Made by a program: the position numbers and the translations under genes
Notes under the pieces: generated by a model
Told to the model about the DNA's origin: nothing
The model's database searches: none
Seen by the model: the letters and a program-made list of their open reading frames with translations, nothing else
Shown here: one piece after another, positions 5,077 to 6,591 of the stretch
Layout: each line of letters starts with the position of its first letter
Position numbering within the stretch: position 1 is the first letter of the stretch
From: Escherichia coli
GTDB taxonomy: Bacteria; Pseudomonadota; Gammaproteobacteria; Enterobacterales; Enterobacteriaceae
Length of the DNA stretch: 64,000 nt
Assembly: GCF_017348835.2 (NCBI RefSeq)
Contig: NZ_CP071375.1
Strand: one strand, 5' to 3'

Positions 5077-6591
5077 ATGACAATTTCAAATTCGAATTTC
5101 TTGAAACCGTTTATTACTGGTACTGAGTTGCCACCTTTTAAAGAGGATGTCTTTTCTAAAACAGAAGAACAATTTAAAAAAAGCACCCATGGCAAATCGC
5201 TTTTCATTTCCCAAAATGAAAACTTAGTAAACATTTCAGCGGAAAAAATCGATGAAATAAAAAATAGCAAAAATTTCTTTTCAAACATTGTAAATATAAT
5301 AATTTTGCTCATTAAGCATCCTGATAAAATTCTGCCCATTCTTCATGGTTGTCCTGCAGAGTCCATCGAACTCATTAAGAATGCGAAACGAACGGGGCAA
5401 TGGTCATATGAGATGACTGATAAGAACGGGCAGAGTATTGAAGTGTCCTATATTTTCACTGATACCATAGATGATAATTATGATGGAAAATTATGCTTAA
5501 AAATCTGTAACTCCTGCAACCAAAATGATTCTAGTACACATGAATATAAGATAGATCATCAACAGTTGAAAAATCACATAAGGCAACTTGAGGAGTGGGC
5601 CCTTCTTGAAAAGTTTTATGATAACAACGCTTATTATTCTAAACGTACAAAACAATTAGAGAAGAAAATTGCCGATGCGGGGTTTATAGCAGGGAAGGTT
5701 AATGCCGATAACTTTAATGTAAACAAGTTTAAAGACGATATAGCCTCGATGCTTTGTGAACAGCCCCCCATGCGTACACACCAGATTTCTTCATCCGGAT
5801 ACTTATCTGCCGATAAAGTGCCCGATCTCTATAAGACAAATTTGAAAGACGCGCAGAGAGATCTGAAAACAACACCGGTTGACATCGATGGTGTTAGTCT
5901 AAAATCAAAAACTCGGGAAAAAATTGCGGAAAAAATTGCGGAAACAATTGCGAAAAAAACGCGAAAGAAATTGCGGAAACAATTGCGAAAAAAACGCGAA
6001 AAAAACGCGAAAAAAATTGCTGAAACAATTGTGGAAAAAAATGCGAAGAGCAGTGAGGAGAAGAATATTGAAAAAAACAAGAAAGAAACAAATCCTGAGG
6101 ATAATTTTGTCTTAAAATTCTCAGAGGAAGAAATCAATGAGATGCTCCTGGATTACAGCGATGAAGAACAAAACAAATTAAGACGTCTTTTCACTAGTGA
6201 TCACATGTATTGTTTGTTTGATGCTTTTAGTCAGGGTTTGCATAATGTTGCTCGTAATGGCAGTCCACGGTATATAGATTTATGCAGTAGTACCGCAACC
6301 AAACTTCAGGGATTACAAGATATTGAACAACAATTGTTCTGGCGCACGTTTACAGGAGGGGTCCTCCATCGACATATCTCTGTGAACAGCGGGCCAGAAA
6401 AGACAGATGTATGGCGATTCAGTACACAATTTGATTTTCCACATATAAATGAAAACGGAGAGTTGTCCAGAACGGTACTCATGTTCGAGGGGGTTGCTGA
6501 AAGCAACTTTAAAGATATCGCTAATCATTCCAGCGAATGTTTTTCTTACCGTTGTTATGCCGCCCCGCTGGATGCGAATGCTAAAAAATAG
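5077..6591 (+). CDS. Hypothetical AT-rich 504-aa protein with lysine-rich repeat linker; candidate horizontally acquired secreted effector
   Basis: Long uninterrupted ORF in a markedly AT-rich segment between malZ and acpH; Ser/Thr/Asn-rich N-terminus; internal repeat EKIAEKIAETIAKKTRKKLRKQLRKKREKNAKKIAETIVEKNAK; no K-12 counterpart that I recognise. Confidence 0.7.
   Translation: MTISNSNFLKPFITGTELPPFKEDVFSKTEEQFKKSTHGKSLFISQNENLVNISAEKIDEIKNSKNFFSNIVNIIILLIKHPDKILPILHGCPAESIELIKNAKRTGQWSYEMTDKNGQSIEVSYIFTDTIDDNYDGKLCLKICNSCNQNDSSTHEYKIDHQQLKNHIRQLEEWALLEKFYDNNAYYSKRTKQLEKKIADAGFIAGKVNADNFNVNKFKDDIASMLCEQPPMRTHQISSSGYLSADKVPDLYKTNLKDAQRDLKTTPVDIDGVSLKSKTREKIAEKIAETIAKKTRKKLRKQLRKKREKNAKKIAETIVEKNAKSSEEKNIEKNKKETNPEDNFVLKFSEEEINEMLLDYSDEEQNKLRRLFTSDHMYCLFDAFSQGLHNVARNGSPRYIDLCSSTATKLQGLQDIEQQLFWRTFTGGVLHRHISVNSGPEKTDVWRFSTQFDFPHINENGELSRTVLMFEGVAESNFKDIANHSSECFSYRCYAAPLDANAKK
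5908..6046 (+). repeat. Imperfect 11-12 bp tandem repeats (gaaaaaattgcg / gaaacaattgcg / aaaaaaacgcg) inside the 504-aa ORF
   Basis: Directly visible in the sequence; produces mirror-image spurious ORFs on both strands (5829..6137, 5894..6091, 5924..6115). Confidence 0.85.

What the first reader, a model, noticed from the sequence alone, without database searches (positions are those of the whole stretch)
5908..6046. Frame-preserving tandem repeat array inside the 504-aa ORF
About 140 bp consists of degenerate 12-bp units (gaaaaaattgcg, gaaacaattgcg) mixed with three 11-bp units (aaaaaaacgcg), so the three 11-bp units sum to 33 bp and the reading frame is preserved. It encodes a highly basic EKIA/KKTR/KKLR/KNAK linker. 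A larger roughly 43-bp unit (gcggaaacaattgcgaaaaaaacgcgaaa) also occurs twice. Such arrays are prone to slipped-strand expansion and contraction, so the protein's linker length may vary between isolates or act as a switch.
Basis: seen in the sequence. Interest (0 to 1): 0.45.

Follow-up and report, generated by a model that had tools for sequence, protein, structure and literature searches.

The report
Variable coding repeat with compensated frameshifts
A 129-bp run of 12-bp repeats inside an uncharacterised E. coli-only gene really does change length between strains, and in this strain three one-base losses in its poly-A runs cancel out, so the gene stays intact but 19 codons are read out of frame as a strongly basic stretch.

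Summary
Window 5917-6045 holds 11 head-to-tail units, eight of 12 bp and three of 11 bp (129 bp, 43 codons), inside the 504-aa ORF 5077-6591. That ORF is an AT-rich gene inserted between malZ and acpH. It is present in 1127 of 5426 complete E. coli genomes and has no detectable relative outside Escherichia/Shigella.

Homologues carry about 2-11 units (proteins 469-506 aa in 4-aa steps), and some pairs differ only by one 12-bp unit.

The 11-bp units are canonical A8CGCG units that each lost one A. The frame slips -1, then -2, then returns, so 19 codons are read off-frame as KKTRKKLRKQLRKKREKNA.

In near-clonal relatives the same four A-runs take lengths 7-9 in five combinations. Four are in frame (all-12; -1/+1; +1/+1/+1; -1/-1/-1) and one is a pseudogene. 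These runs were the only 1-bp indels in about 47 kb.

So this is a coding minisatellite with nested homopolymer slippage, comparable to tolA repeats and neuO, in an orphan gene of unknown function. Whether it acts as an adaptive switch is unproven. Interest is moderate.

The parts
4891..6611 (.). AT-rich islet (about 35% GC) inserted between the convergent stop codons of malZ and acpH
   Evidence: In K-12 the malZ and acpH stops are 4 bp apart. GC drops from about 0.54 to 0.33-0.40 across this stretch.
5077..6591 (+). Orphan ORF of 504 aa, annotated 'hypothetical protein' in all E. coli records seen
   Evidence: No Pfam, NCBIfam, PHROG, PADLOC or PDB match. Only one full-length cluster among 1.84 billion representative proteins.
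5066..5069 (+). GGAG Shine-Dalgarno-like motif 7 nt upstream of the ATG
   Evidence: Read from the sequence printed. PGAP uses the same start codon in other strains.
5917..6045 (+). Tandem array of 11 units (8 x 12 bp + 3 x 11 bp), encoding 43 residues predicted as part of one long helix
   Evidence: The AlphaFold2 model has a helix at residues 277-319, but at pLDDT of only about 57-67.
5953..5963 (+). U4, an 11-bp unit A7CGCG (A8CGCG in F2_81, GF43 and the all-12 allele; A9 in metagenome contig L026)
5988..5998 (+). U7, an 11-bp unit A7CGCG (A8 in PE164 and the all-12 allele; A9 in L020-L022)
5999..6009 (+). U8, an 11-bp unit A7CGCG (A8 in F2_81 and the all-12 allele; A9 in L020-L022; unit absent in GF43)
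5953..6009 (+). The 19 codons read out of the repeat's native frame (KKTRKKLRKQLRKKREKNA, net charge +11, against KKNAKEIAETIAKKNAKKNA, +5, in the all-12 allele)
6010..6016 (+). A7 run of U9, the fourth variable tract (A8 in PE164, F2_81 and L020-L022)
5933..6001 (+). Higher-order 35-bp duplication (an exact 34-mer at 5933 and at 5968) that carries one 11-bp unit in each copy
6021..6023 (+). TGA in the +2 frame. The third -1 shift has to occur upstream of this stop for the ORF to survive.
   Evidence: the +2 frame of the array has a single stop, at the U9/U10 junction.
6071..6077 (+). A7 run just 3' of the array. A7 to A8 at this run is what frameshifts the gene in O145 strains.

Best explanation
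The array is a hypervariable coding minisatellite inside an Escherichia-restricted orphan gene.

Its native unit is 12 bp, (G/A)AA(A/C)A(A/T)(T/C)(T/G)GCG. This encodes a 4-residue repeat, [E/K][K/T/E][I/N/T][A], predicted to form one long alpha-helix between an N-terminal region (about residues 1-275) and a C-terminal region (about residues 345-504).

Units are gained and lost by slipped-strand mispairing or unequal recombination between neighbouring near-identical units. Strains therefore carry about 2-11 units, and the helix changes in 4-residue (roughly 6 Angstrom) steps without disturbing the frame.

A second, finer instability sits inside the array in the window's allele clade. The A8CGCG and A7TTGCT units contain homopolymers that slip by +/-1.

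The window allele has lost one A in each of three A8CGCG units. The ribosome reads U1-U3 in frame 0. After U4 it reads the repeat's +1 frame (KKTR KKLR KQLR). After U7 it reads the +2 frame (KKRE KNA). After U8 it is back in frame 0, just before the only +2-frame stop (TGA at 6021-6023).

This works because units U1-U8 of this clade are stop-free in all three forward frames. The result is an intact 504-aa protein in which 19 residues of a mildly basic amphipathic helix are replaced by a polybasic one.

What is shown: the anatomy, the copy-number ladder, the A-run variants and their reproducibility, the hotspot character of the runs, and the maintenance of the ORF.

What is inferred: the slippage or recombination mechanism, the helical-spacer role, and any phenotypic consequence.
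For: Anatomy.

Copy-number ladder:
- CDS lengths are 1434, 1446, 1458, 1470, 1494, 1506, 1515 and 1518 bp.
- Protein lengths among 120 clusters run 469-501 aa in steps of 4 aa.
- A spread sample of 60 of the 1126 complete genomes with a match gives spans of 482, 494, 506, 530 and 553 bp.

Recent unit-level events: L002 and L004 differ by 0 mismatches and one 12-bp gap in 2250 bp. L007 and L008 differ by 6 mismatches and one 12-bp gap.

The most divergent allele (L012, 461 aa) lacks the array, so the array expanded within E. coli.

A-run variants (A-run lengths of U4, U7, U8, U9):
- all-12 allele: 8, 8, 8, 7 (two NCBI drafts)
- F2_81 plus a Logan assembly: 8, 7, 8, 8
- three datasets including a metagenome: 8, 9, 9, 8
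- window: 7, 7, 7, 7
- PE164: 7, 8, 7, 8, annotated frameshifted

Reproducibility: the exact 504-aa window protein is in 4 NCBI records on 6 contigs, and the other versions are also in independent assemblies.

Hotspot:
- Window against PE164 over 47.5 kb: 3 substitutions and 2 indels, both in array A-runs.
- Window against F2_81: all three 1-bp indels are in the array.
- None of the 12 other homopolymers of 7 or more bases in that stretch shows a 1-bp change.

The ORF is maintained: neutral simulation gives P(no stop) of 0.004-0.05 per allele pair. No called protein carries the frame-2 tail.

Precedent: the tolA 15-mer in-frame repeat varies between E. coli strains and contracts at about 7e-5 in a RecA-dependent way (PMC3477136).
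Against: - Function is unknown and the structure model is poor (mean pLDDT 37.6), so the 'helical spacer between two domains' is only weakly supported.
- dN/dS between alleles is 0.55-1.7, so the amino-acid sequence is barely constrained and linker length may not matter.
- The gene is dispensable in some lineages: O145 strains are frameshifted and O55:H7 USDA5905 has a deletion.
- Copy number is stable within large clones. All 16 O157:H7-type records sampled have identical spans and scores, so the 12-bp instability is modest on clonal time scales.
- The in-frame A-run variants were found through protein searches, which cannot see out-of-frame alleles. The 4:1 ratio of in-frame to out-of-frame is therefore biased.
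- I could not inspect raw reads.
Confidence: 0.8

Rival explanations
1. The array is an adaptive contingency (phase-variation) locus. The cluster of A7-A9 runs is selected because it switches the gene ON and OFF at high frequency and reversibly, and also switches the linker between amphipathic and polybasic isoforms, as a bet-hedging device.
For: Five tract configurations occur in backgrounds that differ by only a few substitutions per tens of kb, needing at least 8 single-base steps if the steps are independent. OFF alleles are seen in PE164, O145 and a metagenome contig. Both the -1/-1/-1 and +1/+1/+1 solutions exist, which implies repeated passage through OFF states followed by recovery of ON. 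E. coli has a precedent in neuO, where a 7-nt coding repeat is ON only at multiples of three (PMC3046976).
Against: The runs are short (A7-A9) for a mismatch-repair-proficient species. The window allele itself has only A7 runs, which should be more stable. A7 runs in O157:H7 alleles do not vary across 16 sampled genomes. No called protein with the frame-2 tail exists in about 15 billion sequences, so OFF states are rare or short-lived. The O145 OFF allele looks fixed rather than switching. The protein has no known surface or host-interaction role. No within-population data are available.
Confidence: 0.2
2. The 11-bp units, and the A-run differences between relatives, are homopolymer miscalls in long-read or repeat-confounded assemblies. 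The true sequence would be the all-12-bp allele encoding 505 aa.
For: All differences are +/-1 in A-runs, the classic long-read error. PE164 and F2_81 are complete, probably long-read, assemblies. F2_81 also shows T14 against T9 at another homopolymer. An all-12 version does exist in draft assemblies.
Against: The exact window protein is found in 4 separate NCBI records on 6 contigs. F2_81's version is on 5 contigs including an independent Logan assembly. The 13/13/13 version is in 3 datasets. No other homopolymer of 7 or more bases in 47.5 kb shows a 1-bp difference between the three genomes, which random miscalling would not produce. Errors would not preferentially sum to multiples of three.
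Confidence: 0.07
3. The ORF is a decaying or never-functional AT-rich insert. The array would then be neutral simple sequence whose variation has no biological consequence.
For: dN/dS is about 1. There are no homologues or domains. The gene is absent from 79% of E. coli. Pseudogene and deletion alleles exist. No promoter excess was found.
Against: The ORF is intact in almost all of about 1,100 carriers despite 3-12% synonymous divergence. Neutral simulation expects 3-5.5 stops per allele pair, with P(no stop) of 0.004-0.05. Frameshifts inside the array are found compensated in three different ways. A GGAG motif lies 7 nt upstream of the ATG (read from the sequence).
Confidence: 0.15

Closest known systems
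Intragenic in-frame tandem repeat of E. coli tolA (15-mer units; Zhou et al. 2012, PMC3477136)
   Same: A coding repeat whose unit length is a multiple of 3. It encodes a K/E/A-rich alpha-helical spacer region. Copy number differs between natural E. coli strains. Changes arise by slippage or recombination, with measured contractions of about 7e-5 that are RecA-dependent.
   Different: tolA is a core gene of known function with 15-bp units. Here the units are 12 bp, the gene is an accessory orphan, and the array additionally contains homopolymers that shift the frame. No phenotype or rate has been measured here.
neuO poly-psi VNTR of E. coli K1 prophage CUS-3 (7-nt AAGACTC units; PMC3046976)
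   Same: An E. coli accessory gene in which coding repeat units are not a multiple of 3. The protein is full length only when the extra bases sum to a multiple of three (three 7-nt units make one heptad; here three 11-bp units make 33 bp). Repeat number also changes the protein's repeat domain.
   Different: neuO's repeat lies at the 5' end, has 2-93 identical copies and switches at high frequency. Here the off-size units are rare derivatives (one base lost) of 12-bp units in mid-gene. Switching frequency is unknown, and the frame-shifted stretch is translated as part of the protein.
Homopolymeric-tract contingency loci of Neisseria, Haemophilus and Campylobacter (reviewed in PMC11475388; details from my own knowledge)
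   Same: Slippage of +/-1 in a coding mononucleotide run toggles the reading frame, and variants are seen among very close relatives.
   Different: Those tracts are usually poly-G/C of 8 or more bases, single, and sit in surface or restriction-modification genes. Here there are four A7-A9 runs within 65 bp, compensation between tracts, and an unknown function.
Crick-Brenner triple frameshift suppression in phage T4 rIIB (1961; own knowledge)
   Same: Three single-base deletions close together restore the reading frame and leave a short mistranslated stretch that the protein tolerates. The +1/+1/+1 counterpart also exists in a sister allele.
   Different: That was a laboratory construct in a phage gene. 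This is a natural polymorphism, made possible by a repeat that is stop-free in all three frames.

Membership tests
Coding VNTR / in-frame intragenic tandem repeat (tolA-type) | Head-to-tail repeated units within an ORF, beyond chance | tested here: met
   TRF scores 134-193. Lag autocorrelation is 0.69-0.72 against 0.44 +/- 0.02 for shuffles, with 0 of 20,000 shuffles reaching it.
Coding VNTR / in-frame intragenic tandem repeat (tolA-type) | Unit length is a multiple of 3, so copy-number change keeps the frame | tested here: met
   The native unit is 12 bp in all alleles outside the window's sub-clade. The intact CDS lengths on the ladder differ by multiples of 12. The three 11-bp units of the window are derived exceptions.
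Coding VNTR / in-frame intragenic tandem repeat (tolA-type) | Copy number is polymorphic between strains | tested here: met
   About 2-11 units and proteins of 469-506 aa. A single-unit difference occurs on an otherwise identical 2.25-kb background.
Coding VNTR / in-frame intragenic tandem repeat (tolA-type) | Measurable instability within a clonal population | not testable with these tools
   Needs amplicon sequencing or a selection assay.
SSR-mediated phase-variable (contingency) gene | A simple-sequence tract in the ORF whose length change shifts the frame | tested here: met
   A7-A9 runs in U4, U7, U8 and U9, and at 6071-6077. PE164, O145 and L026 are out of frame through these runs.
SSR-mediated phase-variable (contingency) gene | ON and OFF variants among near-clonal isolates | tested here: met
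   Window (ON) and PE164 (OFF) differ by 3 substitutions in 47.5 kb. F2_81 is ON with a different configuration.
SSR-mediated phase-variable (contingency) gene | High-frequency, reversible switching within a population | not testable with these tools
   No read-level or culture data. Indirectly weak support only: no OFF-tail proteins in the collection, and A7 runs are stable across sampled O157:H7.
SSR-mediated phase-variable (contingency) gene | Gene product of a class that benefits from switching (surface, host-interaction or restriction-modification) | tested here: inconclusive
   No domain, homologue or confident fold.
ER/K single alpha-helix (SAH) linker | Predominantly E/K/R composition (roughly 70% or more) with i to i+4 E-K pairing (threshold from my own knowledge) | tested here: not met
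   The all-12 array has 19 of 44 E/K/R residues (43%), with I/A/N/T filling the rest. The window allele has 23 of 43. It is predicted helical, but as an amphipathic repeat, not an ER/K motif.
Programmed transcriptional slippage or ribosome-sliding site | An A/T run of about 9 or more (slippage) or about 11 or more A (sliding); thresholds from my own knowledge | tested here: not met
   The longest run in the window array is A7. Sister alleles reach A9, where slippage becomes conceivable.

The most novel reading that the evidence does not exclude
The array may be a multi-tract simple-sequence contingency locus in E. coli. Four closely spaced A-runs are embedded in a repeat that is open in all three frames. 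Combinatorial +/-1 changes would then turn the orphan gene ON or OFF, and would also choose which frame of the repeat is translated, switching the linker between an amphipathic E/K/I/A helix and a polybasic K/R helix. A9-bearing alleles might in addition be leaky through transcriptional slippage.
Probability: 0.15. Interest if true: 0.6.

Novelty: new member of a known kind. Interest (0 to 1): 0.4.

Why it matters
Few simple-sequence-driven variable genes are known in E. coli; neuO and tolA are the usual examples.

This locus adds a clear natural case with two layers of instability. One is 12-bp unit gain and loss. The other is 1-bp homopolymer slippage, and it comes with a set of naturally occurring compensated frameshifts (-1/-1/-1, +1/+1/+1 and -1/+1) in near-identical strains.

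There are practical consequences:
- The region is a trap for assemblers, polishers and pseudogene callers.
- It is a potential high-resolution typing marker within lineages that carry A8 units.
- It shows that an orphan gene with dN/dS near 1 is nevertheless kept open, which argues that the gene does something.

It does not by itself reveal a new mechanism.

Tried and rejected
- **Family searches on the 504-aa protein.** Pfam, NCBIfam, PHROGs and PADLOC gave only sub-threshold hits driven by the K/E-rich segment. A PDB profile search gave nothing below E = 0.05.
- **Distant homologues.** Exhaustive phmmer against 1.84 billion representatives found one full-length cluster plus fragments of the same protein.
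- **Other species.** A scan of species-representative genomes found no relative. It used exact peptides from this allele, so only close relatives could be found.
- **Structure.** AlphaFold2 on a 20-sequence alignment gave mean pLDDT 37.6, so I did not spend fold searches on it.
- **Unbiased ON/OFF census.** A metagenome DNA-pattern scan returned a single 2x-coverage contig.
- **OFF-allele products.** The second found nothing.
- **Window allele DNA elsewhere.** The look-up of encoding contigs had no record for the exact window protein, although the cluster table lists it on 6 contigs.
- **Literature.** Searches by guessed locus tags and by gene neighbours returned only irrelevant papers.
- **RNA families.** Rfam gave only a chance-level SAM-II match (E = 0.29, 22 bits against a gathering score of 44).
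- **Expression signals.** The promoter and terminator scan showed no promoter excess over shuffles.
- **Minus-strand ORFs.** I regard the ORFs across the array (5829-6137 and 5894-6091) as mechanical by-products of the low-complexity repeat.
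Full report
**Context.** The window is E. coli chromosome. malZ (3073-4890) and acpH (6612-7193, minus strand) flank a 1.7-kb AT-rich insert, with GC of 0.33-0.40 against about 0.54 in the flanks. The insert carries one ORF, 5077-6591, of 504 aa. In K-12 the two stop codons are 4 bp apart and the gene is absent. The insert is present, always once and always chromosomal, in 1127 of 5426 complete E. coli genomes. It is annotated only as 'hypothetical protein'.

**The observation.** Reading the sequence gives 11 head-to-tail units from 5917 to 6045. 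Eight are 12 bp and three are 11 bp (AAAAAAACGCG at 5953, 5988 and 5999), for a total of 129 bp or 43 codons. TRF finds the array with periods 12, 35 and 46. Self-similarity at those lags is 0.69-0.72, against 0.44 +/- 0.02 for the best lag in shuffles, and 0 of 20,000 shuffles reach it. The encoded stretch has net charge +11.

**Copy number varies between strains.** I extracted the region between conserved flanks from 13 other strains.
- The flank-to-flank segment is 115, 127, 139, 151, 187 or 196-199 bp long.
- Intact CDS lengths are 1434, 1446, 1458, 1470, 1494, 1506, 1515 and 1518 bp.
- Among the 120 best protein clusters, lengths fall on a 4-aa ladder: 469, 473, 477, 481 (45 clusters), 485, 489 (55 clusters), 493 and 501.
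- An evenly spaced sample of 60 of the 1126 genomes with a match gives spans of 482, 494, 506, 530 and 553 bp.

Some changes are very recent. L002 and L004 are identical over 2250 bp except for one 12-bp unit. L007 and L008 differ by 6 substitutions and one unit. The most divergent allele (L012, 461 aa) has no array at all, so the array expanded within E. coli. Within large clones the number is stable: all 16 O157:H7-type records in the sample give the same span and score.

**What the 11-bp units are.** Outside the window's own sub-clade, every unit is 12 bp. The closest alleles show that the window's AAAAAAACGCG is AAAAAAAACGCG (KKNA) minus one A. The ribosome's path through the array is as follows:

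| Units | Frame read | Peptide |
|---|---|---|
| U1-U3 | native (0) | EKIA EKIA ETIA |
| after U4 | +1 | KKTR KKLR KQLR |
| after U7 | +2 | KKRE KNA |
| after U8 | native (0) | KKIA ETIV EKNA |

 This is possible because U1-U8 of this clade are stop-free in all three forward frames. The only +2-frame stop is the TGA at 6021-6023, immediately after the point where the frame is restored. Units of other clades do contain alternative-frame stops. The 'highly basic linker' is therefore the out-of-frame reading of a repeat that normally encodes a mildly basic amphipathic helix, with net charge +11 against +5 for the shifted stretch.

**The A-runs are an indel hotspot.** Five configurations of the A-runs occur in almost identical backgrounds:

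| Allele | U4, U7, U8, U9 run lengths | Outcome |
|---|---|---|
| All-12 (two NCBI drafts) | 8, 8, 8, 7 | 505 aa |
| F2_81 and an independent Logan assembly | 8, 7, 8, 8 | 505 aa (-1/+1) |
| Three datasets including a metagenome | 8, 9, 9, 8 | 506 aa (+1/+1/+1) |
| Window | 7, 7, 7, 7 | 504 aa (-1/-1/-1) |
| PE164 | 7, 8, 7, 8 | net -1, annotated frameshifted |

The evidence that these tracts are unusually unstable is:
- The window and PE164 differ over 47.5 kb by 3 substitutions and 2 indels, both in these runs.
- Against F2_81, all three 1-bp indels are in the array.
- The first 47.5 kb of the window holds 18 homopolymers of 7 or more bases. Only the four array runs show 1-bp changes. One T9 elsewhere differs by 5 bp.
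- If steps are independent, connecting the five configurations needs at least 8 single-base changes. It needs fewer if 11- or 13-bp units were duplicated or converted within the array.
- Two further out-of-frame alleles use the same kind of site. O145 strains have A7 to A8 at the run equivalent to 6071-6077. A 2x-coverage gut metagenome contig has A9 in U4.

**Artefact or real?** Homopolymer miscalling is the obvious worry. Four points argue against it.
- The exact 504-aa protein is present in four NCBI records on six contigs.
- F2_81's version is on five contigs, including a Logan assembly.
- The 13/13/13 version is in three datasets, and the all-12 version is in two drafts.
- Other homopolymers in the same genomes show no 1-bp differences.

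I could not look at reads, so I leave about 7% for this rival.

**Is the gene real?**
- It has no Pfam, NCBIfam, PHROG, PADLOC or PDB match.
- It has no relative beyond its own cluster among 1.84 billion representative proteins, and none in 100,044 species-representative genomes.
- dN/dS between alleles is 0.55-1.7.
- Even so, the ORF is open in nearly all carriers. Random substitution at the observed divergence would leave it stop-free in only 0.4-5% of trials per allele pair.
- Frameshifts in the array are found compensated in three different ways.
- No called protein in the 15-billion-sequence collection carries the frame-2 tail that a net -1 allele would produce.
- A GGAG motif sits 7 nt before the ATG (read from the sequence).

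I conclude that this is a fast-evolving but maintained orphan gene that is dispensable in some lineages, with a frameshift in O145 and a deletion in O55:H7 USDA5905. The AlphaFold2 model is unreliable (mean pLDDT 37.6). Its only consistent feature is a helix over residues 277-319, which spans the array.

**Mechanism and comparison.** The best-supported reading has two layers. The first is a coding minisatellite whose 12-bp units expand and contract by slipped-strand mispairing or recombination. This matches the tolA 15-mer repeat, which varies between strains and contracts at about 7e-5 in a RecA-dependent way (PMC3477136). The second is +/-1 slippage in A7-A9 runs. This is the size of lesion that mismatch repair normally handles (same paper). 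From my own knowledge, indel rates rise steeply with run length.

The arithmetic 'three off-size units restore the frame' is the same as in neuO, where a 7-nt repeat is ON only at multiples of three (PMC3046976). It is also the logic of the classic triple-frameshift experiments. What is not shown is rapid reversible switching, any phenotype, or any role for linker length. I therefore file it as a new member of a known kind, not as a demonstrated phase-variable gene.

**Verdict.**
- Novelty is modest. Interest is about 0.4, mainly for the natural series of compensated frameshifts and for the possibility (about 15%) of a true multi-tract contingency locus in E. coli.

Noticed in passing
window 22808-24379 (minus strand); run at 23129-23137: A second AT-rich accessory gene, a 523-aa 'pentapeptide repeat-containing protein' between yajO and pgpA, has an A9 run in its coding strand. 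F2_81 has 14 bases there and is annotated frameshifted. PE164 matches the window.
   Followed up: partly
window 13128-14438 and 16820-18130: Two copies of a 1311-bp IS3-family element, shared with PE164 and absent in F2_81. In PE164 they interrupt the DUF3251/yajI lipoprotein gene and separate a RelE/ParE toxin gene from its ParD antitoxin gene.
   Followed up: partly
L010 (O145 RM8843) position equivalent to window 6071-6077: The O145 lineage carries the orphan gene as a pseudogene through A7 to A8 in the run just 3' of the array. Two further records in the sample (O145 RM11626 and Z1323HEC0422) have the same 507-bp span.
   Followed up: partly
L013 (O55:H7 USDA5905): A deletion removes the 3' end of malZ and all but about the last 330 bp of the orphan ORF, showing that the gene, and here malZ too, can be lost.
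   Followed up: no
window about 4921-4968: An inverted repeat, CAGCCCTGACA...TGTCAGGGCTG, lies between the malZ stop and the orphan ORF. It is possibly the malZ terminator hairpin carried on the islet.
   Followed up: no
window 5917-6045: The array is a series of A6-A7 tracts phased every 11-12 bp, close to the DNA helical repeat. It may be intrinsically bent DNA and a good H-NS target. This is speculation and untested.
   Followed up: no
window 5077-5130 (protein residues 1-16): The N-terminus, MTISNSNFLKPFITGT, is rich in S/T/N/I and has no acidic residue. This is reminiscent of type III secretion signals, and the gene is AT-rich like many effectors. It is a resemblance only, and no test was run.
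   Followed up: no
L018 (ETEC4068, pig, Belgium): A 497-aa allele of another clade has an internal duplication of three units (EKIA KKTE EENA repeated), showing multi-unit 36-bp events as well as single-unit ones.
   Followed up: partly
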